From NCBI GenBank assembly GCA_028707635.1, contig JAQWAQ010000001.1:51336-115335 (forward strand): DNA of 64,000 bases. Reading direction: 5' to 3'. The notes under the pieces were generated by a model. That model saw only the letters and a program-made list of their open reading frames with translations. It did not search any database and was not told where the DNA came from. The DNA is from Negativicutes bacterium (lineage in GTDB: Bacteria > Bacillota > Negativicutes > JAAYSF01). Of this stretch, positions 13,490-51,508 are shown piece by piece; position 1 is the first letter of the stretch; the number at the start of each line of letters is the position of its first letter. Position numbers and translations under genes: made by a program.

Positions 13490-13664
13490 CAATGGCAACC
13501 TGGCAATCGTAGGAAAAAACCCTTAGACCCATAGCTTTGCGTCCTTACCTTTCGATAAGTTTGCCAATTTTTTCTATACTGTAGCATAATTTGTCGCAAT
13601 TAGCAATATTTTTTTTGCCCGAACATCCTAGTAACAGGACTTTGGGCCTACTACTTGCACTCCT

Positions 13665-18129: not shown

Positions 18130-18144
18130 GAAACGAGGTGCCCT

Positions 18145-36821: not shown

Positions 36822-38798
36822 TTAAAAGCTGTGCCTATAGCCTAAATTTGCTTTCCATTTTTCCGTCACTTTATCTGCTCCGGCAGTTTTAGTGATTTCA
36901 CCGTAGAGATTGTTGTTTTTGCTAAGCTTGGTGTTAAATCCGATGCCGTATTCGAACCAGGTGTCTTTCATGTCCTCGTTAGTATATTTTTCATAATTCT
37001 GGTAGCTTGTTGTTACACCTGTATCACCTGAAAATTCACGCATGAGTGAGAGTTTGGCATAAACATTCCCGTTTTTTGTATTTTTACCAGCATTTATTCC
37101 CAGTCTGCCGATAAAGGAGTTTATAGCATTATTTTTAACATATGCCCCATTTACTCCATTCATTTTCATAGTATAATCGTTGCTGTTTATGTGCCCATAA
37201 TTTATTTCTGCCTGCGGCTCAATATACCATCCGTCTTTTAAATCCTTATGATATCCATATTCTATAGACATATTAAGTCCATTGGCCGCGGTATCGCTTT
37301 CGTAGTTAGTAGTAGATGACCAGGTATTCATTTTACCGCTCATTCTTCCGTATTTGATAATGGCATCGGCAAAATGCCCTTTTTCTCCTACATAGCTTCC
37401 ATAAATGCCAAACATGGTAGAATCAGTGTCACCCTTGCCGCCGTATGAAGCTATATCTCCATCCATATGCGATAGGGCAAGGCCGGTGAATAGTTTGCCT
37501 TGCTTTATTTCTACCTTGCGGTCATAGCCCGCCTGTATTCCTCTATACTGCACCGTTGATGACAAGGAGCTGTTTATTTCTGTTTCACCGCCGTAAATTC
37601 TGGCCCAGGTACCTGTGCTGTTTTCTTCCTGGCGTAAATCACCCATCCGCCTTAATAAGTCATTGTTTTCTAACCGCCATGTGGATAGAGCTACATTTCC
37701 TAATCCTGCTGCTGTATTGGCCATTTGCTGTCCTGGTCCATCGCTAAGGCTGCCATTGCCTTCAATTTGGACTGCGGTTAGTTTTGTCACACCATTTTCG
37801 GTACTTATAGTAGGAGTAATTGTCAGGGTTTTTGTCAATAGTCCTGCGGCTACGTCTTTTTCTGTCTTATACGGTTTGGCCTGTACCGTATCATTTACAC
37901 CATTATTTGTTGTCAATACAGTAGCTCCGCCAACATATGTACCATCAATATCTTGGCTCGCATCATGTACAACCTGAATATAATAGGTGTTAGAATCGCC
38001 CGTAACGCCCTGTAGCGTCACACTGTCTGCTTGATTATTTTTTATGTCGCTGGCTATAGCAAAGGTTGCACCGTTGAGCGCACCTTCTGCATTACCAATT
38101 GTGAAGCTTCTGTCAATGGAGCTAGTTCGCACTTTATTCGGTGATTGGTGATAGAGATCGATAATTCCGCCGTTTGCCGATAGATGAATACCGTTGTTAC
38201 CTAATGTCGCAAGCGAATAGCTGTCATCGCCTTGCTGCACATACCATACAGCACCATCGCTGAGCTTCATAGATATATCTCCACGGCCTGCATCGCCTTG
38301 CAGCAACATTTTGCCTGCAAGATATGAGTTTTCATTTGTTAAATTAAGCTCTACGTAACCTGTGCCGTCGTACCCATGCTCCTTATCAGTCGTATTGTGG
38401 CCTTGAGCTATAACATTACCAGAAATCTGCACTGTTTTTGTTTTATCAGGATCTGTTTCTGAAATAGGATTTATTTTTAAAGTGGCCCTTGCACCAGATC
38501 CATCAGCAAGTCCATCCACAAATAATGCATAACTCTCACTAGCATCTTGCGTAATAGCAACATTTCCCTTTAACTGTACAGTACCCCACCGAGATGAATA
38601 AGATATATGTCCTTTAGCAATCGCAATATTATCAATTATTTCACCTGGATAATTAGACTCCGTGTAATCCTGCGATTCAGTAATCGTATCCAGCTTTGCC
38701 TCAGCAGGTGCCGGCATTAAGGATGTCGATAATACTATCCCGCCTGTGCAAAGCATATGCAGCAGGCGCTGCCGTTTTTTTTTACTTAGTTTTTTCAA
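36822..38798 (-). CDS. Classical (type Va) autotransporter: signal peptide, beta-helical passenger and C-terminal outer-membrane beta-barrel
   Basis: 658 aa. The passenger is Gly/Thr/Asn-rich with repeats. The C-terminal barrel ends ..KWKANLGYRHSF with an aromatic terminal residue. Confidence 0.75.
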   Translation of the reverse strand: MKKLSKKKRQRLLHMLCTGGIVLSTSLMPAPAEAKLDTITESQDYTESNYPGEIIDNIAIAKGHISYSSRWGTVQLKGNVAITQDASESYALFVDGLADGSGARATLKINPISETDPDKTKTVQISGNVIAQGHNTTDKEHGYDGTGYVELNLTNENSYLAGKMLLQGDAGRGDISMKLSDGAVWYVQQGDDSYSLATLGNNGIHLSANGGIIDLYHQSPNKVRTSSIDRSFTIGNAEGALNGATFAIASDIKNNQADSVTLQGVTGDSNTYYIQVVHDASQDIDGTYVGGATVLTTNNGVNDTVQAKPYKTEKDVAAGLLTKTLTITPTISTENGVTKLTAVQIEGNGSLSDGPGQQMANTAAGLGNVALSTWRLENNDLLRRMGDLRQEENSTGTWARIYGGETEINSSLSSTVQYRGIQAGYDRKVEIKQGKLFTGLALSHMDGDIASYGGKGDTDSTMFGIYGSYVGEKGHFADAIIKYGRMSGKMNTWSSTTNYESDTAANGLNMSIEYGYHKDLKDGWYIEPQAEINYGHINSNDYTMKMNGVNGAYVKNNAINSFIGRLGINAGKNTKNGNVYAKLSLMREFSGDTGVTTSYQNYEKYTNEDMKDTWFEYGIGFNTKLSKNNNLYGEITKTAGADKVTEKWKANLGYRHSF

Positions 38799-39759
38799 TG
38801 TTTTGTCCTCCTGTTACTTGATTTGTTTTTTCCAGAAAAAATTCCATTAACTGGTGCGCAGCTATGCCAAGATAATAGGCCGCCGCTTTATATTCACCGC
38901 GTCCTTGGGCATTTTGGCCAGCCAAAAAAGCAGTCTTCACATCCCAAGGCTCACTCGGCTCCATAGTAAACCATAAAGAACGCCGCACATAGCTCCAGTA
39001 GAGCTGTTCGATTTCATCGGCACAATAGCGAATCCAGGGCTTACCCTCATTGACAAAATGAATAATCGCATCTTCAGGCAGAATTTTGGCCTGAAGAGGA
39101 TTGAAGGCTTCCAGCATATGGTTAAAACAAGGTGAAATCTCGATAACCTGCCCCTCTAAAATACAGTTTAATGTATCCTGCTCCAGTAAGACAAAGTCTT
39201 TGCCGTGTTTTTTATACACCTCAAGTACCTGCTTGGTCAGCTTTTGCTGCCGCCAGATGGGAAGATTCATCAGCATCATGCCGGCATTAAAATACTCTTC
39301 ACCCTTTAAATGTAACCGCAAAGCATGTTCACATGGCTTAGGATAAAAGCTTACTGCCACAGCCTTATTGTTAAGCTCAACCTGCCAAAGCTTGTCCAAC
39401 CTGCCAATACAAAGCATATCCGCATCAAGATAAATAACTTTTGTTAGCTCTTTTGGCAGAAAGTTAGGCAGCAAAATACGCAAAAAGACAGTTTTATTCA
39501 TTCTTTCCGGACCAGCAACAATTTCCGGCACACTTTTTAATAGCTCGCGTACATCATAAATCATGATCCGCGTATTACGATACAGCCTGGTAAATTCATC
39601 AAGTTTGACTTTGTCAGCTTCATCAATTCCGCTACAAGCAAGATGAAAACAGACTGGCTGCCCGGAATGATTTAATACAATAGAGGTCATCATCACGCCA
39701 GCATATTTTACATAGTTTGCATCTACACCAAATGCAAATTGCCACTCTTCCAAATGCAA
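38782..39759 (-). CDS. Glycosyltransferase family 8 (LPS glucosyl/galactosyltransferase-like)
   Basis: FAFGVDANYVKYAGVMMTSIVLNH...YLDADMLCIGRLDKLW shows the DxD motif, and NAGMMLMNL follows. Confidence 0.8.
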   Translation of the reverse strand: MHLEEWQFAFGVDANYVKYAGVMMTSIVLNHSGQPVCFHLACSGIDEADKVKLDEFTRLYRNTRIMIYDVRELLKSVPEIVAGPERMNKTVFLRILLPNFLPKELTKVIYLDADMLCIGRLDKLWQVELNNKAVAVSFYPKPCEHALRLHLKGEEYFNAGMMLMNLPIWRQQKLTKQVLEVYKKHGKDFVLLEQDTLNCILEGQVIEISPCFNHMLEAFNPLQAKILPEDAIIHFVNEGKPWIRYCADEIEQLYWSYVRRSLWFTMEPSEPWDVKTAFLAGQNAQGRGEYKAAAYYLGIAAHQLMEFFLEKTNQVTGGQNIEKTK

Positions 39760-40006: not shown

Positions 40007-42073
40007 TCATTTGGTTATGGTGATCCAATACGTTTCCTTAGTAATACCTTCGTACTGTATTTCAATCAATTTCCTTCCGGCGCTGGTAAACGGAATCGGA
40101 CGGCCTTGCTTTAGTTCAACAAACTTCACGCCATCCGTCGAATAACGAAAAGTGAGTTTATCGGTGATATTTGTTGATTTGTCGTCAACACGATTAAGCC
40201 CGAGTGTATTATAAACCGCTTTCATCCCGGTGATGTCAAAGTTCTCGCCAATCTTGAATGTGGTCTTTGGAGGAAATGCCTCTATTCTGAAGCCTACCAG
40301 CAAACGAGGCTTAGCCAGTTCATCCTTTTTGCTCACAGGGGGCTTTACGACCGTCTGACTTGCGGAATCGCCAGTCACGGTAATAAAGTATCTCGCCACA
40401 AGCGTTAAACGGCCATTGCCAATGTCTCCTTTTATTTCAATTAACTTTATTCCGGCGGTCTGGAACGGACGGCCTTGGGTCAACTTAACGCCATCTGAGG
40501 TGTAAAAACCATAATCCAAGAGTTCCGTTATTTTCCCTCCGTCATTATCATCCTTATATACCAGCTTAAACCCGGTGCTGTCAAAGCCCTCGCCGACCCT
40601 ATAGGTGGTTTTCGTGGGGTATGACACTAGATTCCTTCCGTGCCTGAGCATGGTTGCCACGGTCGGCGTGTGGGAATTTACGCCACGCACCATATAGAAG
40701 TTGAACTCGGCATTGTGCGGATAATCGGGGGCGCTGTTTTCTCTCCATTTATTTTCACTGTACCAGGTAATGATGTGTGTACCGTCCTTACTGCTTCGGC
40801 CCGCAGCATTCAGGTACTGGTCATGAAAGTCGGGAACTTTTATCGTAGCTGTCTTCGCGAGGTCGTTCATTCGGCTAGTAATCCACCACAGAAACTCTGC
40901 GTTCCGGGTAATCAGGCGGCTGCGGTTTGACGGAAGTCCTTCGATAGCGAGATATTTGCCTCCCTCTGTTTGAATCGTAAACAGCTTCATGGGTATAGTA
41001 AATGAAGCATTTTTCGGGTCGACTGCCGGGACGGTTTTCTTGTAGGTGACTTTGAATTTCTGCATTCTTGTGTTGGAAAGCTCTCCCTTGCCGTCTGCGC
41101 CGATGACAACGTGGGGCTGATTGGGATATTTCCCGAGCGATACATCCATAACAAAAACACCTGGGTCCATCAAGGTGGCTCCTTGCCGAGTCCCGCGCAC
41201 CAGCCAATACTGCTCATCAGTCCAGCATTTGTTAGCGTCGCACAGGATTCTCGCCTGTTCCATGGTGATTTTCGCACCTGCGCTCGTGTCGCCGCCGACG
41301 GCAAACTCCTGGATGTCGGCCTCAGAGAGTGCCCCGAGGTTGCCGTCGTATAAATATTTATTGCTATAGGCTGAGAGCTTGAGGAGGGCTTCCGTAAACT
41401 CTTCATAGGTCACGCTCGCCGCCGCATTGAAATTCCCTCCGCTAGGGATGACGCCCATACTGGCAAGAAAATTTGCAGCCGCGCCGATATTCACGCCGCC
41501 AATCTTTTGGTTAAACTTTATGTCAGTGAAGTGCTCTGCTTTGTAAAAAGGCATATCGCCTTCAAATGGCGCACCGCCGTTCCGAAAGAGCAAGAAGAGC
41601 ATTTCTGCCATGTCCGCACGGGTGATGGGCTTTGTCCAGTCGTTTGCCGCATTCGGCCACACGTCCTTCGTGCCGATATAGCCATTGTAGTATGACAGCC
41701 GCTCTTTTGCCCAAGCGGAACACACGATGTCCGGCTGGCTCACCTTTGACAGTTTTGCCTGATAAACATAGCAGTCGCGGCCGCCGTATTTCACCTTTAA
41801 CCATGTCCCGTCACTGGCGGTCGCCGCCAGCACCGTCCCCCAGGGGATTTCACCCTGAACGGGACCGCCCGGGGACAGGCGATACGGTACATTCCAGTTG
41901 TTCCATATATCGGGGATGGTAACACTCGGGTGTGACTGCGGATCGCGTTGATTGACCTTGTACAGCGTCACTCCCGCTATTGGCGTCATGCTGCCAGCCG
42001 CCAGTGCCGCCGGCGGCAGCAGGGTCAGTACCAGGCACAGGGTTAGCAGGCTGCTTATCAGTCGCTTTTTCAT
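40007..42073 (-). CDS. Secreted SLH-domain surface protein with two C-terminal ~90-aa tandem repeat domains
   Basis: Signal peptide MKKRLISSLLTLCLVLTLLPPAALA. Two SLH-like segments (..ITRADMAEMLFLLF.. and HFTDIK..VTYEEFTEALLKL) precede a large domain. A duplicated C-terminal module contains TTFKIGENFDITGMKAVYN and TTYRVGEGFDSTGFKLVYK. The gene is GC-rich. Confidence 0.7.
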   Translation of the reverse strand: MKKRLISSLLTLCLVLTLLPPAALAAGSMTPIAGVTLYKVNQRDPQSHPSVTIPDIWNNWNVPYRLSPGGPVQGEIPWGTVLAATASDGTWLKVKYGGRDCYVYQAKLSKVSQPDIVCSAWAKERLSYYNGYIGTKDVWPNAANDWTKPITRADMAEMLFLLFRNGGAPFEGDMPFYKAEHFTDIKFNQKIGGVNIGAAANFLASMGVIPSGGNFNAAASVTYEEFTEALLKLSAYSNKYLYDGNLGALSEADIQEFAVGGDTSAGAKITMEQARILCDANKCWTDEQYWLVRGTRQGATLMDPGVFVMDVSLGKYPNQPHVVIGADGKGELSNTRMQKFKVTYKKTVPAVDPKNASFTIPMKLFTIQTEGGKYLAIEGLPSNRSRLITRNAEFLWWITSRMNDLAKTATIKVPDFHDQYLNAAGRSSKDGTHIITWYSENKWRENSAPDYPHNAEFNFYMVRGVNSHTPTVATMLRHGRNLVSYPTKTTYRVGEGFDSTGFKLVYKDDNDGGKITELLDYGFYTSDGVKLTQGRPFQTAGIKLIEIKGDIGNGRLTLVARYFITVTGDSASQTVVKPPVSKKDELAKPRLLVGFRIEAFPPKTTFKIGENFDITGMKAVYNTLGLNRVDDKSTNITDKLTFRYSTDGVKFVELKQGRPIPFTSAGRKLIEIQYEGITKETYWITITK

Positions 42074-42100
42074 GGCTTTGTTCCTCCCATAAGTAGATGG

Positions 42101-42204
42101 CAATACTGCAATTCATAGATACATTAATTATAGTTTAATCTTGCGACTGCTCATTCCATATGTGGAAAATTGCAGGTTTTTTGGTGAAATTGGAGAAATA
42201 CGAC
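42101..42204 (-). promoter_or_regulatory. Conserved promoter module, copy A, upstream of the SLH gene: a TATAAT -10 box plus two 9-bp direct repeats (CAATTTCAC / CAATTTTCC) with 20-bp phasing
   Basis: About 85% identical over ~100 nt to 46706..46805. In transcript orientation the repeats lie at 42184-42192 and 42164-42172. TATAAT lies at 42126-42131. Confidence 0.6.
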
Positions 42205-42498
42205 GATGGCGCACAAGCAAAATGTACGTCCCATTGCTTCTCTAAAAGCAAACCCTTGCCTCGGCATGAGATACCGGGGCAAGGGTTCGTGTTTGTTCCT
42301 GCCGGGTTTAGCGCCACTGCGTTTCTACCGGCTGCGATGTCAGCAGGACTTTCAGACAGTACCGCCGTCCCTGCGAACAAAACTCCGCTCTTTTTGCAAT
42401 TGCTTTGGAGCGGAGTTTTGTTTTGCTGATTCAATTTTACAACAGTTTGCTATGAATGTGGTAGTGTCTTATAACCCGGTTTTTAATTAGCTTTTTTA

Positions 42499-42753
42499 TT
42501 ACTTAAACTTGTTATACGCTACAGTACTGTTTGTAGAGCCCATATTTACGACTTGATCAAAATCAGAGCGGTAAGCTCCGTTAAGCTTGCCGATAATTGT
42601 GTAAGTACTATTTGGTGCTAAACCGCTAAATATCATTTGACTGCCTGTCCTACTGCTGGCAGTTATTTCAAAGCCTGCTGAATCTCGAAGGTATAACACT
42701 ACACTAGCTGCAGCTGGATCGTAGTTCGAATTTACTGTAAGGGTTACCCGCGT
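42499..42753 (-). pseudogene. Probable out-of-frame C-terminal extension of the giant adhesin (frameshift near 42.74 kb)
   Basis: The 66-aa ORF directly downstream, in another frame, encodes a beta-rich domain-like sequence (..FEITASSRTGSQMIFSGLAPNSTYTIIGKLNGAYRSD..). Its frame is open upstream into the adhesin's 3' end (..VTLTVNSNYDPAAASVV..). Confidence 0.4.
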
Positions 42754-45700
42754 TTATGGATCTAGTGGTGTTAGCTTTATTTCAACAAGGGTATATGGAT
42801 CATATGTGCCGGCTCCGGGGGCAATCGTTGCCGTTACGGTATTACTGGCATAGCCAGTCATGCTCGCTGTAAAGGTCACTTCGCCGGACGGAACAGATTC
42901 AAATCTAGCATAGCCGTACACGTTCGTGGTTTTTGAAGTTCCACCCTCCAGAGTTACCGTAGCGCCTTGGAGAGTATTGGTGCCGCTTTTGACTGTGACC
43001 TGGGCTTTACCTGGTAACCTATCCAGAACAATCACCTGCTCATTAGTGCCTTCATTGACTGTCACCCCCTGCATCATGCCTTGGTAACCATCTTTGAGTG
43101 CGGTATAGAAGTAGCTTTGTGTCGATACGTTAGTCGGCACTTTCGTTAATGTAAACTTACCATCTGCGCCTGAATACCCTAATACTTTCTTAGGATTAGA
43201 GTAACTTTCGCTAATTTCTGCTCCGCTGATCGGCTGACCCTTGCTGTCTTTAACTATCAAAGTTAAATCGCCGACCTTGTGAACGATAGTCAGATTAACG
43301 GAGTTGTTCTCCTCTGATATAGAAATAGTCTTACTGTCATCGTTATAGTTGTTACACGTTGTGGTAAAAGTATAGTCTCCGGCGGGCACACTAAAGGATA
43401 CATTCCCATAGCTGTCAGTTGTTTTAGTTTGGTCAACGCCATTACCTGTAACGCGCACGCTTGCACCCCACACATTTTTCTCAGCGTCGTCTTTGACATT
43501 AACTTGAGCAGTAATTATTTTATTGATCGTCAAAGAAATGTTGCCAGTGATACTTCTGGAGATTGTCACGCTTTGGGACTTACTTTCATAACCGGTGCAA
43601 GTTATATCAAAGGTATAGTTACCGACAGGGAGGTTTGTAAAAGAAACTTTACCGTCAGCGCCGCTATTTTTATCAATCTTACTGCCGTTTACAGTTACAG
43701 AGATTTTAGCTCCGGGAACCGGCCCTGAGCCGCTAGTCACTATAAAGTCCACGCTGCCCATTGCCGGCAAAGTTATTGTCGTGCTCGCCGGAGTATCGGC
43801 TGCAATTGTTACGACAGCAGTCTTACTGTCATAGCCTGATGTGGCGGTAAAGGTGTACTGACCGGTGGGGATGGAGGTAAATGTTGCTTCCCCTTGTGCA
43901 TTAGTTGTTTCTGTTTTTACTTGACCATTCACTGTCACGCTGACAGTTATGCCGCTAATGGGGTTATCGCCGTCCGTGACCGTAATCTTCGCGCCGCCGG
44001 TCTGGCGGGTTAAGGCGATGCTTGAGGTCGCTGTGGCTCCGTTTGCTATGACTACGTCACTTGCTGTACCGCTGACGTAATCCGCCTTAGTGGCTGTGAA
44101 GGTATATGTGCCGGTCGGGATGTTTGCAAAGATCACCTCGCCGTTAGCGGCGGTAGTCGCCGTTTGCTCCTGACCGTTTAGCGTCACTTTGACAGTGACT
44201 CCGCTAAGCGGTGCTGTGCCATCAGTAACCGTGATCTTTGCATTACCTGTCTGGCGTGCTAGGGCTATGGCTGCAGTCGCTGTTGTTCCGTTTGCTATGA
44301 CTACATCGCTTGCTGTACCGCTGCCGTAATCCGCCTTAGTGGCTGTGAAGGTATATGTCCCTGTCGGTATGTTCGCAAAGGTCGCCTCACCGTTAGCGAC
44401 GGTAGTTGCCGTTTGCTCTTGGCCGTTTACAGTCACTTTGACAGCGACTCCGCTAAGCGGTGCTGTGCCGTCAGTAACCGTGATCTTTGCTCCGCCGGTC
44501 TGGCGAGTTAAGGTCACATCGGCAGTAGCTATTGAGCCGCCGGTTATGGTTGTGCTTATTGTGTTGCTGTTATAATCTGCCTTCGTTGCTATAAAGGTGT
44601 AGGTTCCTACTGGCAGATTCGTAAATGCCGCCACACCGTAATCATCGGTAACAGCCGTCTGGGGTTGGCCGTTTACCGTCACGCTGACGGCTGCTCCGCT
44701 AAGCGGTGCATTAGAATCATCTTTAACAGTAATGTTTGCTCCGCCGCCCTGTGGTGTCAGAGCAATCGCCGCAGCTACCGTCTCTTTGTCGGCAACAGCT
44801 GTATTTACACTTTTGCCGCTGTAGTTGGCAGCGCTGGCAGCTACTGTATAGGTTGAACCGGCTGTCAGACCGCTAAAAACGGCTGTGCCGTCGCTGCCGG
44901 TGGTTTTTGTATCAATAACATTGGAACCGCTTTTCAGCTCGACTGCAGCGCCGTTTATGACTGCTTTACTGACTGCGTCGATAATCATTGCCACAATGTT
45001 GCCTCCGCTGGCTGGTAATACGACGGTAGAATTGCTTGTCGAGCCGTCTGCTACGCTTACCGCCAAGCTTTTCATCTCTTTGCCGCTATAGGCAACCGTG
45101 AATTTGTAGTTCCCCGGCGGTAAATTCGGGAATGTGGCTATACCGCTTGCATTGGTAACTGCCGTCACTTTGAAACCGGCAGCCGCATAGGCTGTCTTAA
45201 CTCCGAGAATTCGGTCAAAGAGACTCTTGTCGGCCGCACCATACAGCCCGTCTGCAGTTTCGGCGGTAACTGTCGCGCCGCCAACATCTGCCCCGGCTTC
45301 ATCCAGTACATGGATAAACGCTTTGCCGCCAAGAATGGCTAAAGCAATAGGAGGAACGGTTGTAGTTTGGTCTTTTTGTACAATCACCGCCGAGCTAGTG
45401 CTGCTAATGCTGAAATAGGAGGCGCGTACTGTATAATCTCCTGCATCCAGGCCGCTTAACACCGCTATGCCATTTGCGTCGGTTATCGCTACCGCGCCGA
45501 CCGGACTACCGTTTTGATATGCTTGCACTTGCGCGTCTTGCAGTGCTGCACCGCTGCCATTGGTTACTGTTACGCTTAAGCTGCCGGTGTAAGCGACAAA
45601 TTTAGTAAAGGTTTCGGTTTTGATATCATTTTCCCGTTGCACCTTTTGCAAGATCTTATGACTGATATCATTCGACCGCTCTTGGGGATTGCCGCCATGC

Positions 45701-46632
45701 AAGGCCGGCCCTGCCGTATCGGCCAGTTGATAAAGGACTTTGCCGTAGAGACTTCCGCTGCTCAGGTTAGAATTGGTATAGCCCATTTCCATGGATAGCC
45801 TGGGGGTAAGCTGCATTTTACTGCGCAGTCTGTAGCCGTTTTCATCTTCTTTGTGCTTGTTGTCATAGTGAAATCCTGAGGCATAAAGGCTGAACCAGGG
45901 AACATTCGCTAGCGATGTGCCCACTTCATAATCAAAACCGCTCACCGCCCGAATGTAGGAATACAATATTCCATCGGCAAGGGCGGTTCTGCCAGTTTGC
46001 CTATCGCCTGAAGTCGGGATGTAGAAGTTGGCCCGGTATTCCGCTTGCTTGTTGAAATATTCTGCGCCGACTCCAACGCGGGAAAGGTCGTGCTGGAAGG
46101 CATAGTCATAAAAAGCATTGACCCCGGTGATGCTGGTTTTATCTTCAGACAGCCATCTTAATCCCATGCCAAGATTTGCTGTGCTGTTTGCCCCGCTTTG
46201 ATAAGCGTAGCGTCCTTGCCAGAAGCCAAGCTTACCGTCTGTAACTTCCTTTGTAAAAGGTTGAAGGGTCTCAAGCGAGTATATCGGCTTGAAATCCTCG
46301 GTAAACGTAAGATTGATATCAGTCGTCCGCAGCCATTCTGGCCCTTGCTGCTTGCCATTTTGCGCGTAATAAGGGATAAGTTGATTGATAAATTGGACAA
46401 CTTTCTCCTTTGTTGATAAAGTAGCCGTGTCAGCATTCTGCTTGTTTTGGAACTGATCTTCTACCTGTTTATCTAGTGTAATTTCCGGTAGTTCGCTAGT
46501 TTGCTCGCTAGTATTTGCGCTGGCGGCTGCGTACACCGGGACTAGCGCCACCGTATTGGACATAAGCAACAGTGCCGTCAGAAAACAGGCCAACAGCTTG
46601 TTCAGTCGTTTAAAAATGTTAAACAAAGCCAA
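42754..46632 (-). CDS. Giant inverse autotransporter (intimin/invasin-type N-terminal beta-barrel) with a passenger of tandem CarboxypepD_reg-like repeats
   Basis: The N-terminal barrel motifs NAFYDYAFQHDLSRVGVGAEYFNKQAEYRANFYIPTSG match the intimin/invasin barrel pattern. Many ~88-aa Ig/CarboxypepD_reg-like repeats follow (ITVTDGTAPLSGV.VKVT.NGQEQTATT.ANGE..FANIPTGTYTFTATKADY). The start is the TTG at 46632 or 46626. Confidence 0.8.
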   Translation of the reverse strand: MALFNIFKRLNKLLACFLTALLLMSNTVALVPVYAAASANTSEQTSELPEITLDKQVEDQFQNKQNADTATLSTKEKVVQFINQLIPYYAQNGKQQGPEWLRTTDINLTFTEDFKPIYSLETLQPFTKEVTDGKLGFWQGRYAYQSGANSTANLGMGLRWLSEDKTSITGVNAFYDYAFQHDLSRVGVGAEYFNKQAEYRANFYIPTSGDRQTGRTALADGILYSYIRAVSGFDYEVGTSLANVPWFSLYASGFHYDNKHKEDENGYRLRSKMQLTPRLSMEMGYTNSNLSSGSLYGKVLYQLADTAGPALHGGNPQERSNDISHKILQKVQRENDIKTETFTKFVAYTGSLSVTVTNGSGAALQDAQVQAYQNGSPVGAVAITDANGIAVLSGLDAGDYTVRASYFSISSTSSAVIVQKDQTTTVPPIALAILGGKAFIHVLDEAGADVGGATVTAETADGLYGAADKSLFDRILGVKTAYAAAGFKVTAVTNASGIATFPNLPPGNYKFTVAYSGKEMKSLAVSVADGSTSNSTVVLPASGGNIVAMIIDAVSKAVINGAAVELKSGSNVIDTKTTGSDGTAVFSGLTAGSTYTVAASAANYSGKSVNTAVADKETVAAAIALTPQGGGANITVKDDSNAPLSGAAVSVTVNGQPQTAVTDDYGVAAFTNLPVGTYTFIATKADYNSNTISTTITGGSIATADVTLTRQTGGAKITVTDGTAPLSGVAVKVTVNGQEQTATTVANGEATFANIPTGTYTFTATKADYGSGTASDVVIANGTTATAAIALARQTGNAKITVTDGTAPLSGVTVKVTLNGQEQTATTAANGEVIFANIPTGTYTFTATKADYVSGTASDVVIANGATATSSIALTRQTGGAKITVTDGDNPISGITVSVTVNGQVKTETTNAQGEATFTSIPTGQYTFTATSGYDSKTAVVTIAADTPASTTITLPAMGSVDFIVTSGSGPVPGAKISVTVNGSKIDKNSGADGKVSFTNLPVGNYTFDITCTGYESKSQSVTISRSITGNISLTINKIITAQVNVKDDAEKNVWGASVRVTGNGVDQTKTTDSYGNVSFSVPAGDYTFTTTCNNYNDDSKTISISEENNSVNLTIVHKVGDLTLIVKDSKGQPISGAEISESYSNPKKVLGYSGADGKFTLTKVPTNVSTQSYFYTALKDGYQGMMQGVTVNEGTNEQVIVLDRLPGKAQVTVKSGTNTLQGATVTLEGGTSKTTNVYGYARFESVPSGEVTFTASMTGYASNTVTATIAPGAGTYDPYTLVEIKLTPLDP
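43975..44770. repeat. About three near-identical 264-bp tandem repeats inside the giant adhesin gene
   Basis: The repeats are visible at nucleotide level, e.g. ccgtttgctatgactac...gtaaccgtgatctttgc recurs. They encode the 88-aa domain copies. Confidence 0.85.
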
Positions 46633-46705
46633 TCCTCCTCACTTTCTTTAAATGAAACTGCATTTTTATTGATACATCACAAAACCCCTCTACAAACTTT
46701 AAGTA

Positions 46706-46805
46706 TTGCAATCCATAGTTAAATTAATTATAGCTAAATCTTGCAGCTATTAATTCCATATAAGGAAAGTTGCAGGTTTTTGGGTGAAATTGGCGAAATA
46801 AGAGA
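46706..46805 (-). promoter_or_regulatory. Conserved promoter module, copy B, upstream of the giant adhesin gene
   Basis: Repeats GTGAAATTG (46784-46792) and GGAAAGTTG (46764-46772) on the + strand, TATAAT at 46728-46733, and the same 20-bp phasing as copy A. Confidence 0.6.
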
Positions 46806-46854
46806 AAGAAAAAAGCCATGCATGACGCATGGCAACTAATTGTGATTATATATA

Positions 46855-47577
46855 CTATTGACTATTTAGAAGAGCATAGAAGGCTTCCTTCACTTTATCT
46901 CTATTTGTTCGACTAATTGGTATCACTGTTCCGTCAGTTAATACAAACTTGTCATTTTCATATTTCTCGATGTAGAGGAAATTGACCAGATAGCTTTTGT
47001 GTGACCGGATAAAAGTGTTTAACTGCTGCATTTGTTCGAATTCGTCCAGTTTAGCATAAACAGTTATTTTCTCCGCTATCTTCGCTAGGACAATATTAAC
47101 TTTATTATTTTCACTTTCTAAGTACAGGATATCTTTTGTCGGTATTTTTTGAGTTACACCACGGTAAGTGATACAAATACTTGCTTTATCTGCACTTTCG
47201 ATCTGCGCTATTGCCCTTTCCATAACCTTGGCTAACTGATCTAGCTTTATCGGTTTTACCAGATAACCCGTTGCGTTGACTTCGTATCCTTCATAAACGT
47301 AATCTGTTGAACTTGTCAGAAATATAATGTTAACTAATTTGTCCTGTTTACGGATTATCCGTGCACATGTCATTCCATTCATGTCACCCATAATAATATC
47401 CAGAAATATGATATCAAAACATACGGTTTTACTCTCGATAACTGAGTTTAATTTATAAGGGTTATCGTAAGTAAAGATAGTAGCATTGACACCCTGCTTG
47501 CATAAATATCTCTCAATTGTTTCATATAGCTTTATTCTGTCAGCAACATTATCGTCACAAATCGCTATGATTATCAT
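46855..47577 (-). CDS. LytTR-family response regulator (AgrA/ComE-like)
   Basis: The REC domain (IIIAICDDN...DIIFLDIIMGDMNGM) is followed by a C-terminal LytTR domain (..ICITYRGVTQKIPTKDILYLESENNKVNIVL...FIRSHKSYLVN). The start ATG at 47577 is preceded by GAGGTGG. Confidence 0.9.
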   Translation of the reverse strand: MIIIAICDDNVADRIKLYETIERYLCKQGVNATIFTYDNPYKLNSVIESKTVCFDIIFLDIIMGDMNGMTCARIIRKQDKLVNIIFLTSSTDYVYEGYEVNATGYLVKPIKLDQLAKVMERAIAQIESADKASICITYRGVTQKIPTKDILYLESENNKVNIVLAKIAEKITVYAKLDEFEQMQQLNTFIRSHKSYLVNFLYIEKYENDKFVLTDGTVIPISRTNRDKVKEAFYALLNSQ

Positions 47578-47756
47578 TGGTTGCCACCTCGTAACCAGAT
47601 TCACCTAAGGCGTGGGATATAAAGGCTCTGTCAAACCTTGTATCTGTAGGAAAGTTGTAAACAGCGTGAAACGCGACATAAATAATAATTCTGCAATATT
47701 ATATGTAATCCTTTTTAGTTGGCTTGATTTAATGTTGCAGCAGTAGGAGGGTTATT

Positions 47757-49049
47757 TTGCAAGAAAGTATAGTGTTTATAAGCAGAGGTATGTTTTTAAT
47801 AACAAATATTTTGCTGCTATATATATTCTTAACGCCAAAGCGGCCTTTCTGGTTTCAAATTACTGCCTTATCTGTTACCTGGATCGCTATTTACTTTTTG
47901 CGCGACATTTTGCAATCAATTATCCCTGATCCCTTTTTAGTTGGCTACCTAGTGGGCTCATTGTATATAATCCCTTGCGCACTGATTTTTAAAGAAACAA
48001 TTAATGCTAAGCTTTTTGTCTTTTTTATGATTTTTTCACTTTCCCAGTTTACTTTTCTTATTTTTTTATTTCTAGAGCAATTAGTATTTAACCATCTTGT
48101 AGGCAGTTTGATTTTGGCAGGTCTACTGCTTGAAGCTGCATCACTGCCTTTAATAAAGAAATATGTGTCACCCCATGTCAGCAATATTATTGCGATTATC
48201 GATCAGCGAAATTTCGCTTTTACCTGTTTTCCCCTTTTGTCATTTGTACTGCTGGCGTTTTATGGGGTGCAAAGAACATATTTGCTATCCAACTTCATTC
48301 CACTAGTAGTAAGTACCTTATTGATTCTTTTTACCTATTACCTGATTGCCACAGCAATCTATCAGACAATGCGTAACCAGCAAGCAGAAAAACAACTGGC
48401 CTTGCAACGCGAACATTATCGCAGCCTAAACGATAGTATTAACGCAATGAAAACAATGCGCCATGACTTGCGTCATCATCTTGTGACGTGCTTAGAGTTT
48501 TTAGTGAAAAAGAATTCGGCTGCAGCAGAAAATTATCTGGGTCAGCTTTGCAATCACTATGACGATATTGCTATCCCTAAAGTTTGTTCTAACCAATTTG
48601 CTGATGCTCTTATTTGCCATTACCTAAAGGTGGCGAAGGAGCAAGGTGTTAATATAAATACAAACTTGCATTTGCCTGACGATTTAGGTATTGATGATCA
48701 AGACCTGTGCGTTATTCTTGGCAATTGCTTGGAAAACGCTATTGAAGCCTGCAGTAAAATACCTAAAAATCAGTTGCGTTATATTGATATTAAAACCACC
48801 ATAACTAAGAATCATCTAGTAATTAAAATTGCTAATTCTTTTTGTGGTTCCGCCATCCGTCAAGGCGACAGTTTTGTATCCTCAAAAAACGGTGATAGTC
48901 ACGGAATGGGGCTTTCCAGTGTAAAAGCGCTAACTTCCAAATACCACGGTTATTGCTCTATCAATTGTGAACAACAAGTATTCAAAGTTGCTGTCTCTTT
49001 GAAACTTCCGGAAACAGTTGCCGAGTCACAATCATTAAGTATTTCTTGA
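47757..49049 (+). CDS. HPK10-type (AgrC/ComD-like) sensor histidine kinase with a 6-TM N-terminal domain
   Basis: The polytopic N-terminus is followed by H-box MRHDLRHHL. The C-terminal GHKL ATPase carries the N-box NCLENAIEA and the G-box GMGLSSV. It is divergent from the LytTR regulator. Confidence 0.85.
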   Translation: MQESIVFISRGMFLITNILLLYIFLTPKRPFWFQITALSVTWIAIYFLRDILQSIIPDPFLVGYLVGSLYIIPCALIFKETINAKLFVFFMIFSLSQFTFLIFLFLEQLVFNHLVGSLILAGLLLEAASLPLIKKYVSPHVSNIIAIIDQRNFAFTCFPLLSFVLLAFYGVQRTYLLSNFIPLVVSTLLILFTYYLIATAIYQTMRNQQAEKQLALQREHYRSLNDSINAMKTMRHDLRHHLVTCLEFLVKKNSAAAENYLGQLCNHYDDIAIPKVCSNQFADALICHYLKVAKEQGVNINTNLHLPDDLGIDDQDLCVILGNCLENAIEACSKIPKNQLRYIDIKTTITKNHLVIKIANSFCGSAIRQGDSFVSSKNGDSHGMGLSSVKALTSKYHGYCSINCEQQVFKVAVSLKLPETVAESQSLSIS

Positions 49050-49410: not shown

Positions 49411-50304
49411 ATGCGAAAAAGTTGGATTGTGGTCATATTAACAGCTTTATTGTTATTGACAATTTCTAGTACCGTTTTAGCAAATTCCACGAAAAGAATC
49501 GGTGTGCTGACCTTAAATAACGACAGCTCATACACACAATTTGGATCTATTGCCGCTGAAACAATTACTGCTGATTTAGCGAAGCTAAAATCTTGTGTTG
49601 TCGTTGAACGAAACGAGTTATCTAGCGTTTTTGCTGAACAAAGCTTTGGTGCCAAAGGATACATTGATGAAGCAACAGTTACAGAATTAGGCGGGATCCT
49701 TGGTCTGAACTACCTGCTAATGGGTTCTGTTGATTGCGATTCGGTGAAAGAACGTGGGCACTATTATTATAATAAAAAACATAAGCGAAATGAATGGATA
49801 GACGGAACCCAAAAGACAACTGTTATGCTTACTCTAAAATTAATTGATGTCAAAAACGGACACATCGTTTGGTCAGATCAATCAAGCGTTACTAATTATA
49901 ACGACGATATTAACATCACTCTTGCCGAAGCAGCGTATGATTCTGTACGAAAAATATATAAATTTATTCCCTTGCAGGGTTATATAATTAAAAACGACGC
50001 TGGCCAATATATTATTGATTTAGGCACTAATCACAATGTTACTACTGGTGATATTTTTGAAGTAAATAGCGTCAACAGCACTATTCACCATCCTGTAACT
50101 GGTGAACTTATTGTAATGAAAAAAAATGTTGGCGAACTTAAAGTAACAGAAGTTTTTGATTCCATTTGTGCTGCTAAAATCAAAGATTCAGATGACGAAA
50201 AAGCAATGGAAAATATTCAACCTGGAGATATTGTAGTAAAGAAATTAAAGAAAAAGCCACGTGGCTTCTTGGGGTTAGGCTGGTCAGGCAAACACGATTT
50301 TTAA
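49411..50304 (+). CDS. CsgG-family-like (curli secretion/LpoB-like fold) secreted protein
   Basis: Signal peptide. KRIGVLTLNNDSS...AETITADLAKLKSCVVVERNELSSVFAEQSFGAKGYIDEATVTELGGILGLNYLLMGSV matches the CsgG-family pattern. Confidence 0.65.
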   Translation: MRKSWIVVILTALLLLTISSTVLANSTKRIGVLTLNNDSSYTQFGSIAAETITADLAKLKSCVVVERNELSSVFAEQSFGAKGYIDEATVTELGGILGLNYLLMGSVDCDSVKERGHYYYNKKHKRNEWIDGTQKTTVMLTLKLIDVKNGHIVWSDQSSVTNYNDDINITLAEAAYDSVRKIYKFIPLQGYIIKNDAGQYIIDLGTNHNVTTGDIFEVNSVNSTIHHPVTGELIVMKKNVGELKVTEVFDSICAAKIKDSDDEKAMENIQPGDIVVKKLKKKPRGFLGLGWSGKHDF

Positions 50305-50311
50305 AAAAATA

Positions 50312-50341
50312 AGGACAGTTGCAAATTTGCAACTGTCCTTA
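50312..50341. terminator. Bidirectional terminator
   Basis: AAGGACAGTTGCAAATTTGCAACTGTCCTT is a perfect hairpin, followed by ATTTTTTGTT. Confidence 0.85.
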
Positions 50342-50349
50342 TTTTTTGT

Positions 50350-51444
50350 TCACTTAAGGGAAATGGTAATACAATTGTTGGATACTTCGATGACTTTAAT
50401 AGGTAATTGAGGCATAGCTTCTAGCTGTTCAGCTAACACAGTCGGAGATCCCGTGTAGTTAACATCAAGCATAGCAACTCCTTGTTGAAAATCACGTAAA
50501 AATACATTGGCAATGCCTGTTTGCTGCTTAATTGAGCGATTTAATAAATTGACAATGGAATAGTCATTGACTCCCATAACTTTAATTTGAACACCCTTTT
50601 CTGGGTTGGCTGCATAGGTTAGAAGTTTTTCGGCAAAATATTTGCCTGCAGCTTTACCGGCATTGTTTAGAGACTTTTTAGCGGCCGTTAATTCTGTTAT
50701 ATCAATACCGCCAAGCTGAAAACCTTGCGCAGCTATAATCTCGCCTGTATCCACCTTGATCATTCTGGCTTCTACTCGGGCGCGACAGGATATAATACTG
50801 CCTCCCATATCCCGACCGGCATACTCGGCAAAACCTTCTCCTACGATTAAGTAATCCATCCTGTCTTTTAGCATCATCAGAAGAGCTGTTTGACTATCTC
50901 CTTGAATTATTGCCTTTACAGTGTCCGACTGACGGATTTGAGCTAAGCTATCGGGATCTACAATCCTACGAAATCCGGCTTCGGCTAATTGATCGATAAC
51001 TGCTGTTTCGGCAGCTGAATCAGAGATAGGCCGTATGTAGTATTCTTTAATTACGACACCAATTCGCGGATCACGCAACCCCATATCAATTAGTTTTAAA
51101 CGTTGAAGTTTTGTCATTAAGGTTGAGTTGGGCTGTGAGTCAACTGTTACATGGGCCTGCAATGTAAATACACCGTTCGCTTCTTTCTCACTTATAATAG
51201 TATAGTCACGGATATATCCCTGTGATTTTGCATATATCTCATCTTTTAACACCATATTGTTTTGCACCAGCGTTTGAGAGTCAATTAAAGTTCCCACCGC
51301 TTGCTCAACGGCCTGGCGCATGGCGTCATGCAGCGCCGCCTCACGCGTTGGCCCTTGCCCGTCTACAAGGACTGTCTGTGCTGATACCAACAGGCATTGT
51401 GAAATTACAATTAATGTGATAACCATGATTTTTAATGCTTGCAA
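50350..51444 (-). CDS. Secreted multi-domain protein with LPP20-like and CsgG-like modules
   Basis: Signal peptide. The N-terminal LPP20-like region reads REAALHDAMRQAVEQAVGTLIDSQTLV. The central CsgG-like segment reads PRIGVVIKEYY...YLIVGEGFAEYAG. Confidence 0.55.
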   Translation of the reverse strand: MQALKIMVITLIVISQCLLVSAQTVLVDGQGPTREAALHDAMRQAVEQAVGTLIDSQTLVQNNMVLKDEIYAKSQGYIRDYTIISEKEANGVFTLQAHVTVDSQPNSTLMTKLQRLKLIDMGLRDPRIGVVIKEYYIRPISDSAAETAVIDQLAEAGFRRIVDPDSLAQIRQSDTVKAIIQGDSQTALLMMLKDRMDYLIVGEGFAEYAGRDMGGSIISCRARVEARMIKVDTGEIIAAQGFQLGGIDITELTAAKKSLNNAGKAAGKYFAEKLLTYAANPEKGVQIKVMGVNDYSIVNLLNRSIKQQTGIANVFLRDFQQGVAMLDVNYTGSPTVLAEQLEAMPQLPIKVIEVSNNCITISLK

Positions 51445-51508
51445 ATTAAACCACCCTTATCCTGAAACTTTACACATGCAATCAATACTGTTTGGCTGCT
51501 GTCGAAGC

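What the first reader, a model, noticed from the sequence alone, without database searches (positions are those of the whole stretch)
42499..46632. A 1292-aa inverse autotransporter (intimin/invasin-type barrel) in a diderm Firmicute, built from near-identical 264-bp tandem repeats with a likely 3' frameshift
The N-terminal ~300 aa match the inverse-autotransporter beta-barrel pattern (NAFYD..HD.SRVGVGAEY...ANFYIPTSG). The passenger is a long array of ~88-aa CarboxypepD_reg/Ig-like domains. At least three copies are more than 90% identical at DNA level (43975-44770), which implies recent expansion or contraction, possibly phase or size variation by recombination. The ORF ends at 42754. The next 66-aa ORF, at 42499-42699 in another frame, looks like a further beta domain, and its frame is open back into the adhesin. 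The true C-terminus therefore probably lies at 42499 and is interrupted by a frameshift or a sequencing error. Type Ve secretion in Negativicutes is poorly documented.
Basis: partly seen in the sequence, partly recalled or inferred. Interest (0 to 1): 0.55.

Follow-up and report, generated by a model that had tools for sequence, protein, structure and literature searches.

The report
Inverse-autotransporter adhesin with stop-truncated tip
This is a real intimin/invasin-type outer-membrane adhesin gene from a Pelosinus-like diderm Firmicute, and its last domain is cut off by a single in-frame TAA stop codon (not a frameshift) that related strains share, so the gene family is ordinary but the shared stop is a small unsolved puzzle.

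Summary
The ORF at 42754-46632(-) is real and is an inverse autotransporter. It matches Pfam IAT_beta (99 bits), and its predicted barrel superposes on the intimin and invasin barrels. Twelve beta-sandwich domains follow the barrel.

First, the repeats are not near-identical 264-bp units. Only one adjacent pair of 249-bp units is 87% identical, and the others are 45-69% identical. Second, the 66-aa ORF is in the same frame as the adhesin, so there is no frameshift. A single TAA (42754-42756) separates the adhesin from 84 further codons (42502-42753).

In four relatives those 84 codons form the C-terminal domain of one uninterrupted protein, with Ala (GCA in the three with DNA) where the window has TAA. 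Seven other lineages from independent assemblies have a stop at the same codon. In some of them the tail is intact and in three it is deleted. A sequencing error is therefore very unlikely.

Best reading: an inherited nonsense allele gives a tip-less but otherwise intact adhesin, and the tail is slowly decaying (confidence about 0.6). Functional readthrough is not excluded (about 0.15).

The family is already auto-annotated across Sporomusaceae, so this is a new member of a known kind.

The parts
47757..49049 (+). GHKL-type sensor histidine kinase, divergent from the regulator/adhesin genes
   Evidence: Pfam HATPase_c_5 E=2e-22. An orthologue of 77-92% identity lies next to the adhesin gene in L001, L003, L004, L008/L013, L010 and L012.
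46855..47604 (-). LytTR-family response regulator directly upstream of the adhesin, same strand
   Evidence: Pfam Response_reg plus LytTR. The adjacency is conserved in related loci. Regulation of the adhesin by this pair is inferred only.
46815..46833 (-). Terminator-like hairpin plus T-run between the regulator gene and the adhesin gene
   Evidence: It suggests that the adhesin has its own promoter in 46641-46815 (inferred).
46634..46640 (-). Ribosome-binding site GAGGAGG
   Evidence: Read directly. It lies 7 nt before the TTG at 46626 and only 1 nt before the TTG at 46632.
42754..46632 (-). Adhesin ORF as it stands: 1292 codons from the first TTG, probably 1290 from 46626, ending at TAA 42754-42756
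   Evidence: P0001 is 100% identical (1290 aa, bioreactor metagenome).
46528..46632 (-). Probable Sec signal peptide (MFNIFKRLNKLLACFLTALLLMSNTVALVPVYA|AAS)
   Evidence: Read from the sequence. AlphaFold2 models it as a helix, model residues 2-35, at low confidence (pLDDT below 50 over most of it). No signal-peptide predictor was available.
45634..46443 (-). Inverse-autotransporter beta-barrel (aa 64-333)
   Evidence: PF11924 at 99.2 bits. By sequence, intimin 4e1s E=1e-4 and invasin 4e1t E=4e-4. AlphaFold2 model with Foldseek matches to 4e1s (E=1.3e-14, TM 0.79) and 4e1t (E=2.4e-14, TM 0.77).
42757..45585 (-). Passenger: 11 tandem beta-sandwich domains (aa 350-1292). The first also matches Big_1; the rest are CarboxypepD_reg/SpaA-like.
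43999..44496 (-). The only recent duplication: domains 5 and 6, two 249-bp units 87% identical
   Evidence: There are 33 mismatches, 17 synonymous and 11 non-synonymous codon differences, and a longest identical run of 34 nt.
42754..42756 (-). In-frame TAA at the boundary between domain 11 and the tip domain. It is GCA (Ala) in L001, L002 and L009, and Ala in P0056.
42502..42753 (-). 84 in-frame codons after the stop: an intact tip-domain remnant
   Evidence: 82%, 75%, 77% and 80% identical to the last 84 (or 83) residues of P0008, P0002, P0054 and P0056. AlphaFold2 gives pLDDT 89 and an all-beta sandwich. The nearest solved folds are CBM20/CBM41 modules, TM 0.5-0.68. No Pfam hit.
42496..42501 (-). 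Tandem TAA TAA ending the tail frame
42376..42422 (-). Strong hairpin flanked by A- and U-runs, the likely transcription terminator. It lies after the tail, not after the TAA.
   Evidence: (15-bp stem, z=-3.4). It is conserved in L001, L002, L004 and L009.
40007..42103 (-). 698-aa secreted protein downstream (weak Big_3 match), a conserved neighbour
   Evidence: It is 83% identical downstream of the adhesin in L011. Big_3-like ORFs lie next to the adhesin in L001 and L002.

Best explanation
The gene encodes a type Ve (inverse autotransporter) surface adhesin of a Pelosinus-like member of the Sporomusaceae.

Proposed mechanism, following the established intimin/invasin mechanism:
- A Sec signal peptide takes the protein to the periplasm.
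- The N-terminal barrel inserts into the outer membrane.
- The C-terminal passenger is threaded out and forms a stalk of 11 tandem ~83-aa beta-sandwich domains.

Ancestrally the stalk carried a 12th, sequence-distinct tip domain. In this genome a nonsense codon (TAA, where read-through relatives have GCA/Ala) sits exactly at the linker before that tip. The product is therefore a tip-less adhesin that should otherwise be fully exportable. The 84 tip codons are still transcribed, because the terminator lies after them, but they are essentially untranslated.

The stop is a real, heritable allele shared by descent and/or recombination among related strains. Their adhesin genes are mosaics, and in some strains the silent tail has already been deleted.

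Shown: family membership, domain anatomy, in-frame stop, homology of the tail, and recurrence of the stop in other assemblies. Inferred: export mechanism, adhesive function, control by the adjacent LytTR two-component pair, and that the tail is not translated to a useful level.
For: Identity of the protein:
- PF11924 at 99 bits and PF13620 in 11 stretches.
- The barrel model matches intimin and invasin, TM 0.77-0.79.
- There are 53 homologues, nearly all from Negativicutes.

Stop and tail:
- The tail is in the same frame after one TAA.
- The tail equals the C-terminal domain of four read-through homologues.
- The window has TAA where L001, L002 and L009 have GCA.
- The same-site stop occurs in L003, L004/L005, L006, L007, L010 and L011 (TAA) and in L008/L013 (TGA).

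Decay of the tail:
- The tail is deleted or disrupted in L006, L008/L013 and L010.
- Differences in the tail are spread evenly over codon positions (73:89:70 in stop-bearing pairs).
- Pooled dN/dS is 0.75 in stop-bearing pairs.
- Neutral simulation gives a 26-37% chance per lineage that the tail stays stop-free.
- There is no conserved RNA structure after the stop.
- TAA is the tightest stop in E. coli reporters, with mean readthrough of 0.01-0.05% (PMC11126739).
- TAA is also the commonest ordinary stop in the window, 27 of 43.

Mosaicism and other nonsense alleles:
- Read-through alleles are near-identical at the junction and tail, but are scattered in a tree of the upstream 185 codons (0 of 300 bootstraps recover them as a group).
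- Nonsense alleles occur elsewhere in the family: L007 within the barrel and L011 near the N-terminus.
Against: - The stop is older than a recent accident. Codons within 7 positions on either side of it differ among stop-bearing lineages.
- Four type-1 tails and one very divergent type-2 tail (L011, 90 codons, about 35% identical over the 42 residues that align) are still open and free of indels. The adjacent 3'UTR shows 2-7 small indels per ~120 nt.
- dN/dS of the tail is not clearly higher in stop-bearing pairs (0.75) than in read-through pairs (0.58).
- If TAA is ancestral, the read-through alleles would need a two-base reversion to GCA.
- The Pro-stop context is known to slow peptide release in E. 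coli (Hayes et al. 2002, as cited in PMC7246954).
- Read-level support for the TAA in this particular assembly could not be checked.
Confidence: 0.6

Rival explanations
1. The stop is a maintained recoding site. A fraction of ribosomes read through the TAA (or TGA in one lineage), so cells make mostly tip-less adhesin plus a minority carrying the tip domain. Alternatively, the site acts as an evolutionary on/off switch for the tip, kept usable by selection.
For: - The same codon is a stop in 8 lineages although flanking codons have diverged.
- One lineage has TGA instead of TAA, so the stop was kept through a substitution.
- Tails stay in frame without indels at 18-30% nucleotide divergence, whereas the neighbouring 3'UTR has many small indels.
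- Two deeply diverged tip classes both sit behind the stop.
- The tail folds confidently as a domain.
- The terminator lies after the tail.
- Substitution patterns are similar in stop-bearing and read-through alleles.
- A Pro-stop context slows termination in E. coli.
Against: - TAA is the least leaky stop codon.
- The nucleotide context is not conserved: CCA/TCA/GTG before the stop and A/G after it.
- There is no conserved downstream RNA structure.
- The tail shows no third-position bias and dN/dS is near 0.75.
- The tail has been deleted in 3 of 8 lineages.
- No suppressor tRNA was seen, though only local DNA was available.
- Recombination among mosaic alleles could produce the same pattern.
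Confidence: 0.15
2. One reading: the interruption is a frameshift or a sequencing/assembly error, and the true protein runs uninterrupted to 42499.
For: - The tail is clearly homologous to the C-terminal domain of read-through relatives.
- The window comes from a metagenome assembly.
Against: - There is no frame change.
- TAA against GCA needs two adjacent base changes.
- The same stop is found in independent assemblies from ENA, Logan and NCBI MAGs.
Confidence: 0.03
3. The whole gene is a dying pseudogene. The TAA is just the first lesion, and the adhesin is no longer made or useful.
For: - Relatives show further lesions: a barrel TAA in L007, an N-terminal TAG in L011, and tail deletions elsewhere.
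Against: - The window's 1290 codons upstream of the stop are fully open. The RBS, signal peptide and barrel motifs are intact, and all 48 columns that are invariant across 37 homologues are conserved.
- A truncation at a domain boundary at the distal end should not affect barrel insertion or export of the stalk. This is an inference from the type Ve mechanism.
Confidence: 0.1
4. The repeat array drives rapid phase or size variation by recombination between near-identical units.
For: - Domains 5 and 6 are a recent duplication, 87% identical.
- Domain number ranges from 8 to 14 among close homologues.
- Contigs often break inside these genes.
Against: - There is only one similar pair, and its longest identical run is 34 nt.
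- All other units are 45-69% identical at DNA level.
- Loss or gain of an 83-aa unit keeps the frame, so it cannot switch expression off.
Confidence: 0.08

Closest known systems
Intimin (EHEC/EPEC) and invasin (Yersinia), type Ve secretion; barrels 4E1S and 4E1T
   Same: - An N-terminal signal peptide is followed by a PF11924 barrel and then a C-terminal passenger of tandem beta-sandwich domains.
- The predicted barrel superposes on both solved barrels, TM 0.77-0.79.
- The first passenger domain matches Big_1.
   Different: - Barrel identity is only 20-22%.
- No LysM periplasmic domain was found by Pfam.
- The stalk is built of CarboxypepD_reg/SpaA-like (prealbumin-like) domains rather than Big_1 domains.
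- The tip is not a C-type lectin-like domain. It is a small beta-sandwich whose nearest solved folds are CBM20/CBM41.
- The host is a Negativicute, not a proteobacterium.
- The tip lies behind a stop codon.
Long multi-domain E. coli inverse autotransporters (YeeJ, SinH, FdeC group; PMC5595812, PMC6714894)
   Same: They are long stalks of many repeated Ig-like domains after an IAT barrel, with biofilm or adhesion roles and a domain number that varies between alleles.
   Different: The domain family and the host phylum differ. No experimental data exist for the Sporomusaceae proteins.
Veillonella parvula SKV38 FNLLGLLA_00035 (PF11924 barrel only) and split autotransporter genes (PMC7549365)
   Same: It is the only PF11924 (IAT barrel) protein in a Negativicute mentioned in the papers found. 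The same paper notes autotransporter genes that appear split.
   Different: The Veillonella protein has no passenger. Veillonella loci here carry tandem arrays of barrel-only genes. The Sporomusaceae proteins have full passengers.
Bacterial 'pseudo-pseudogenes' and low-level stop-codon readthrough (Salmonella, PMC9122581; E. coli, PMC11126739)
   Same: A gene interrupted by an in-frame stop may still yield traces of full-length protein.
   Different: In those cases readthrough is a low-level error, not a conserved site. Here the same stop is shared by many lineages, but no expression data exist.

Membership tests
Inverse autotransporter (type Ve secretion, PF11924) | Beta-barrel domain scoring above the curated threshold of the IAT_beta model | tested here: met
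   99.2 bits against a cutoff of 22.3, E=4e-28, aa 64-333 covering profile positions 10-277 of 279.
Inverse autotransporter (type Ve secretion, PF11924) | Barrel fold like the solved intimin/invasin barrels | tested here: met
   AlphaFold2 model with barrel pLDDT mostly 80-95. Foldseek matches 4e1s (E=1.3e-14, TM 0.79) and 4e1t (E=2.4e-14, TM 0.77). The strand count in the model is 12-14 DSSP segments; an exact count of 12 was not verified.
Inverse autotransporter (type Ve secretion, PF11924) | Inverted order: signal peptide, then barrel, then passenger at the C-terminus | tested here: met
   Barrel at aa 64-333 and passenger domains at aa 350-1292. The signal peptide was read from the sequence only.
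Inverse autotransporter (type Ve secretion, PF11924) | Passenger of tandem Ig-like domains ending in a receptor-binding tip | tested here: inconclusive
   There are 11 tandem beta-sandwich domains, of which only the first matches Big_1. A distinct 12th domain exists but lies behind the TAA. Its binding role is unknown.
Inverse autotransporter (type Ve secretion, PF11924) | Host has an outer membrane | tested here: met
   The closest genomes are Pelosinus and other Sporomusaceae, class Negativicutes. The window also encodes a type Va autotransporter barrel (PF03797) and CsgG-like lipoproteins. BAM genes themselves were not seen in the window.
Inverse autotransporter (type Ve secretion, PF11924) | Passenger actually displayed on the cell surface | not testable with these tools
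   This needs surface labelling or protease shaving of cells.
Programmed stop-codon readthrough (recoding) | Stop conserved at the same position across diverged lineages with an open in-frame extension | tested here: met
   Eight lineages have a stop at the same codon. The extension is open in 5 of them (partly visible in 2) and deleted in 3.
Programmed stop-codon readthrough (recoding) | Extension shows a protein-coding conservation signature | tested here: inconclusive
   There are no indels or stops, but differences are even over codon positions and dN/dS is 0.75, against 0.58 in read-through alleles. Neutral survival of the ORF is 26-37% per lineage.
Programmed stop-codon readthrough (recoding) | Leaky stop type, or a conserved context or downstream RNA structure | tested here: not met
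   The stop is TAA in 7 of 8 lineages. Flanking codons vary. The consensus fold is -6.4 kcal/mol with an unfavourable (positive) covariation term.
Programmed stop-codon readthrough (recoding) | Extended protein detected | not testable with these tools
   This needs proteomics or a reporter assay.
Repeat-mediated phase/size-variable surface protein | Several near-identical tandem units long enough for frequent recombination | tested here: not met
   There is one pair at 87% identity, with a longest identical run of 34 nt. The rest are 45-69% identical.

The most novel reading that the evidence does not exclude
The in-frame stop before the tip domain is an old, selectively maintained feature of this clade of Sporomusaceae adhesins. 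It would be a recoding or switch site that lets one gene give a tip-less stalk and, rarely or conditionally, a tip-bearing adhesin. That would be a bacterial chromosomal example of functional UAA readthrough controlling the ligand-binding end of a type V adhesin.
Probability: 0.15. Interest if true: 0.7.

Novelty: new member of a known kind. Interest (0 to 1): 0.4.

Why it matters
Type Ve adhesins have been studied almost only in Proteobacteria. In the papers searched, the only mention for Negativicutes is a barrel-only Veillonella protein.

This locus and its 50-odd relatives show that Sporomusaceae carry full-length inverse autotransporters with a different stalk domain type, usually next to a LytTR two-component pair. 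That is useful for anyone studying biofilms of these bioreactor and subsurface anaerobes, or outer-membrane biogenesis in diderm Firmicutes.

The shared stop codon at the stalk/tip boundary is a clean natural experiment. If the tail is silent, it shows that a tip-less allele spreads and persists. If the tail is read through, it would be an unusual way to regulate the binding end of an adhesin. For annotation, the practical point is that the 66-aa ORF should not be called as a gene, and the locus should not be repaired as a frameshift.

Tried and rejected
- **Tail-only protein search.** The 84-aa tail alone found nothing in the word-indexed database. A 256-aa query gave two new relatives.
- **Collection scans.** Scans of JGI metagenome contigs and GTDB genomes with the tail alignment found no relative. 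The tail is confined to a narrow clade: a full HMMER scan of 1.84 billion representatives gave only two close hits, both at the C-terminus of read-through forms.
- **Independent copy of the window's protein.** An exact look-up of P0001, to find a second assembly of this allele, found nothing on record.
- **Suppressor tRNAs.** Only tRNA-Glu(CTC) in the window and one tRNA-Pro in the loci were found. This is uninformative because only local DNA is held.
- **Readthrough-stimulating RNA structure.** None was found.
- **Translational bypass of the T4 gene-60 kind.** In the window GAT CCA precedes the stop and recurs 39 nt downstream, but the second copy is not conserved in L004 or L003. Rejected.
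- **Separate translation of the tail.** The internal GTG at 42699 has no RBS, would cut off the first strands of the domain, and is followed by no signal peptide. Rejected.
- **Other long in-frame continuations after stops.** Those in L028, L033 and L034, and after window ORF 17065-18129, are separate genes that share the frame by chance.
- **Altered genetic code.** TAA ends 27 of 43 long ORFs here, and the tail itself ends in TAA TAA. Rejected.
- **dN/dS and codon-position tests.** These were run to decide whether the tail is translated. They did not separate stop-bearing from read-through alleles.

Full report
**What is at the coordinates**

The window has a 1292-codon ORF at 42754..46632 on the minus strand and a 66-codon ORF at 42499..42699. 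A GAGGAGG ribosome-binding site at 46634-46640 lies only 1 nt before the first TTG and 7 nt before the second TTG at 46626. The likely protein is therefore the 1290-aa form. That form is 100% identical to a deposited protein from a bioreactor metagenome, which UniRef already names an inverse autotransporter beta-domain protein (P0001).

**Family assignment**

- Pfam gives IAT_beta (PF11924) at E=4e-28, 99.2 bits against a cutoff of 22.3. The match covers aa 64-333 and profile positions 10-277 of 279.
- Pfam also gives CarboxypepD_reg (PF13620) at E=1e-101 in 11 stretches, overlapping SpaA/CarbopepD_reg_2-type matches, and a Big_1 match on the first passenger domain.
- By sequence alone, the N-terminal 411 aa hit only the intimin (4e1s, E=1e-4) and invasin (4e1t, E=4e-4) barrels in the PDB.
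- An AlphaFold2 model of aa 3-440, built with 36 homologues, has barrel pLDDT mostly 80-95.
- The best Foldseek matches of that model are 4e1s (E=1.3e-14, TM 0.79 on the target) and 4e1t (E=2.4e-14, TM 0.77).
- No LysM or SLH domain is detected.

The protein is a type Ve adhesin by every feature that could be tested.

**Organism**

- All close protein relatives with names come from Sporomusa, Pelosinus, Methylomusa and Anaerosporomusa.
- A scan of one genome per GTDB species returned 39 loci. All are Negativicutes except two weak outliers.
- The best is an uncultured Pelosinus MAG, 84% identical over aa 1-888. Its neighbouring kinase is 92% identical and its regulator 88%.
- Pelosinus is in Sporomusaceae, Negativicutes.
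- The window also encodes a classical type Va autotransporter and CsgG-like lipoproteins.

The 'diderm Firmicute' statement holds.

**Repeats**

- Tandem Repeats Finder reports one array of period 249 bp, 2.2 copies and 84% matches.
- A sliding comparison at offsets 246-267 shows similarity only at 249 bp, and only across about 43969-44300.
- I delimited 12 domains of 80-107 aa.
- Domains 5 and 6 (44248-44496 and 43999-44247) are 87% identical at both DNA and protein level. They have 33 mismatches and a longest identical run of 34 nt.
- Their neighbours are 57-69% identical and all other pairs 45-57%.

The 'near-identical 264-bp repeats, at least three copies above 90%' is therefore not there. 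What is there is one recent duplication inside an old, diverged domain array. Close homologues have 8 to 14 such domains, so length does change over evolutionary time. A gain or loss of one unit keeps the frame, and nothing suggests rapid switching.

**The 3' end**

The 66-aa ORF is in the same frame as the adhesin: 42756-42699 = 57 nt, which is 19 codons. Translating straight through gives ...IKLTPLDP*TRVTLTVNSNYDPAAAS...VAYNKFK**. That is one TAA, then 84 sense codons, then TAA TAA.

- The 84 residues are 82% and 75% identical to the last 84 residues of P0008 (1140 aa) and P0002 (1532 aa).
- They are 77% and 80% identical to the C-terminus of P0054 and P0056 over the 83 residues that align.
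- All four relatives have Ala at the position of the stop.
- At DNA level the window reads GAT CCA TAA ACG, where L001, L002 and L009 read GAC CC(A/G) GCA ACG. That is two adjacent base differences with no length change.
- A strong hairpin with flanking A- and U-runs (42376-42422, z=-3.4) follows the tail, not the TAA. It is conserved in the relatives.
- The tail alone is modelled confidently as an eight-strand beta-sandwich (pLDDT 89).
- Its nearest solved folds are CBM20/CBM41 carbohydrate-binding modules, TM 0.5-0.68. This is only a weak lead, because the fold is generic.

**The stop is not private to this assembly**

I fetched the DNA of relatives whose proteins end at ...LDP. Each has an in-frame stop at the homologous codon, followed by the tail in the same frame:

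| Locus | Stop | State of the tail |
|---|---|---|
| L003 | TAA | Open to the contig end |
| L004 = L005 | TAA | Intact, 84 codons |
| L007 | TAA | Open for 72 codons to the contig end |
| L006 | TAA | Deleted after about 12 codons |
| L008 / L013 (two MAGs of one lineage) | TGA | Deleted after about 11 codons |
| L010 | TAA | Destroyed by a 1-nt insertion and a deletion |
| L011 (Sporomusa MAG) | TAA | Intact, 90 codons, very divergent |

The L011 tail shares only motifs such as L.DSAGF and F.GLA..YTI with the window's tail. It is about 35% identical over the 42 residues that align.

That makes eight stop-bearing lineages, counting the window, against four read-through lineages. A sequencing or assembly error in the window is therefore very unlikely.

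**How old is the stop, and is the tail still used?**

Evidence for a silent, decaying tail:
- Three of eight lineages have lost the tail.
- Differences between tails are spread evenly over codon positions (73:89:70 in stop-bearing pairs).
- Pooled dN/dS is 0.75 in stop-bearing pairs.
- If all observed differences are treated as random hits, a tail stays stop-free with probability 0.26-0.37 per lineage. Four or five survivors out of eight is unremarkable.
- No conserved RNA structure follows the stop.
- The flanking nucleotides vary.
- TAA is the tightest stop in E. coli reporters, with mean readthrough of 0.01-0.05% (PMC11126739).
- TAA is the commonest ordinary stop in this window, 27 of 43.
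- Nonsense codons also occur elsewhere in the family. A TAA replaces Ser inside the barrel in L007, and a TAG replaces Gln near the N-terminus in L011.
- The genes are mosaics. The read-through alleles are nearly identical at the junction and tail, but they scatter in a tree of the 185 upstream codons (0 of 300 bootstraps recover them as a group). The 3' cassette, with or without the stop, evidently moves by recombination.

Evidence that does not fit simple decay:
- Codons within seven positions on either side of the stop differ among stop-bearing lineages, so the allele is not a recently spread patch.
- One lineage changed TAA to TGA and so kept a stop.
- The surviving tails have no indels at 18-30% nucleotide divergence. 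The adjacent 3'UTR, at only 9-15% divergence, has 2-7 small indels per ~120 nt. Many of those that I checked by eye in the window-L004 pair lie in homopolymer runs, which the tail has fewer of.
- Two deeply diverged tip classes both sit behind the stop.
- dN/dS is not clearly different in read-through pairs (0.58).
- The residue before the stop is usually Pro, a context reported to slow peptide release in E. coli (Hayes et al. 2002, as cited in PMC7246954).

These points keep a functional-readthrough or maintained-switch reading alive, but none of them is decisive.

**Mechanism proposed**

By analogy with intimin and invasin (established mechanism; an inference here):
1. The signal peptide directs Sec export.
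2. The barrel is inserted into the outer membrane.
3. The passenger is threaded out starting from its barrel-proximal end.

A truncation at the distal end, exactly at a domain boundary, should therefore still yield an exported 11-domain stalk that lacks its tip. I put about 0.6 on this 'heritable tip-less allele with a silent tail'. I put about 0.15 on maintained readthrough or a switch, about 0.1 on the gene being functionally dead, under 0.1 on repeat-driven variation being relevant, and about 0.03 on error or frameshift.

The LytTR response regulator (46855-47604) and GHKL kinase (47757-49049) are adjacent to the adhesin gene in at least six related loci. They are the obvious candidate regulators, but this is inference only.

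**Comparison with what is known**

- The 2016 survey of the inverse autotransporter family does not mention Firmicutes (PMC4943183).
- The only Negativicute mention found is a barrel-only protein in Veillonella parvula, in a paper that also notes split autotransporter genes (PMC7549365).
- No paper links the family to Sporomusa or Pelosinus.
- The proteins are, however, already recognised by automatic annotation, and the architecture is the known type Ve architecture with a different stalk domain.

This is a new member of a known kind. The shared stop before the tip is the only part that could turn out to be new biology.

**Limits**

- I could not see reads for this assembly.
- The number of independent lineages is small, and two tails are only partly visible at contig ends.
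- Recombination blurs any tree-based dating of the stop.
- No expression data exist.

Noticed in passing
window 36822-39759 (-): A classical type Va autotransporter (PF03797, E=3e-41; 36822-38798) has a start that overlaps the end of a family-8 glycosyltransferase gene (38782-39759). This may be a glycosylated autotransporter pair.
   Followed up: no
window 13491-13575 (-) and 11372-13402 (-): A c-di-GMP-I riboswitch (77.5 bits) lies directly upstream of a dCache-HAMP-MCP chemoreceptor gene. A GGDEF gene (29696-30820) and a hybrid kinase (26874-29276) lie nearby.
   Followed up: no
window 49411-52357: Three lipoprotein-like genes have CsgG/LpoB/FlgT/LPP20-type matches next to the adhesin's two-component pair. 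They may be part of the same surface or biofilm island.
   Followed up: no
L007:325 and L011:572: Related adhesin genes carry further in-frame stops at positions that should be essential. In L007 a TAA replaces Ser inside the barrel. In L011 a TAG replaces Gln in the N-terminal region. Each is followed by 870-970 open in-frame codons.
   Followed up: partly
L036-L046 (Veillonella genomes): Veillonella loci contain tandem arrays of two to six IAT barrel-only genes of about 370-440 codons. Some have in-frame stops, for example in V. atypica KON.
   Followed up: no
window 42376-42500 and the same region of L001, L002, L004, L009: The 3'UTR between the tail and the terminator is 85-91% identical among loci whose adhesin bodies are only about 60-66% identical. 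The 3' end of the gene behaves as a conserved cassette.
   Followed up: partly
L006 and L008/L013, about 11-12 codons after the stop: Two independent deletions of the tail start at almost the same codon: after ...LTVNSNY in L006 and after ...LTVNANA in L008/L013. In the window the same spot carries a second GAT CCA, like the one before the stop. This may be a recombination or deletion hotspot.
   Followed up: no
window 17065-18552 (+): The ORF 17065-18129 is followed by 141 open in-frame codons. These are a separate EVE-like gene (MSFWLAKTEPNTFSY...) that shares the frame by chance.
   Followed up: yes
L001, L004, L008/L013 versus window, L003, L010, L012: The adhesin gene lies either downstream of the LytTR regulator or upstream of the kinase, depending on the genome, while the kinase and regulator stay about 77-92% identical. 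The adhesin gene has moved around a conserved two-component pair.
   Followed up: no
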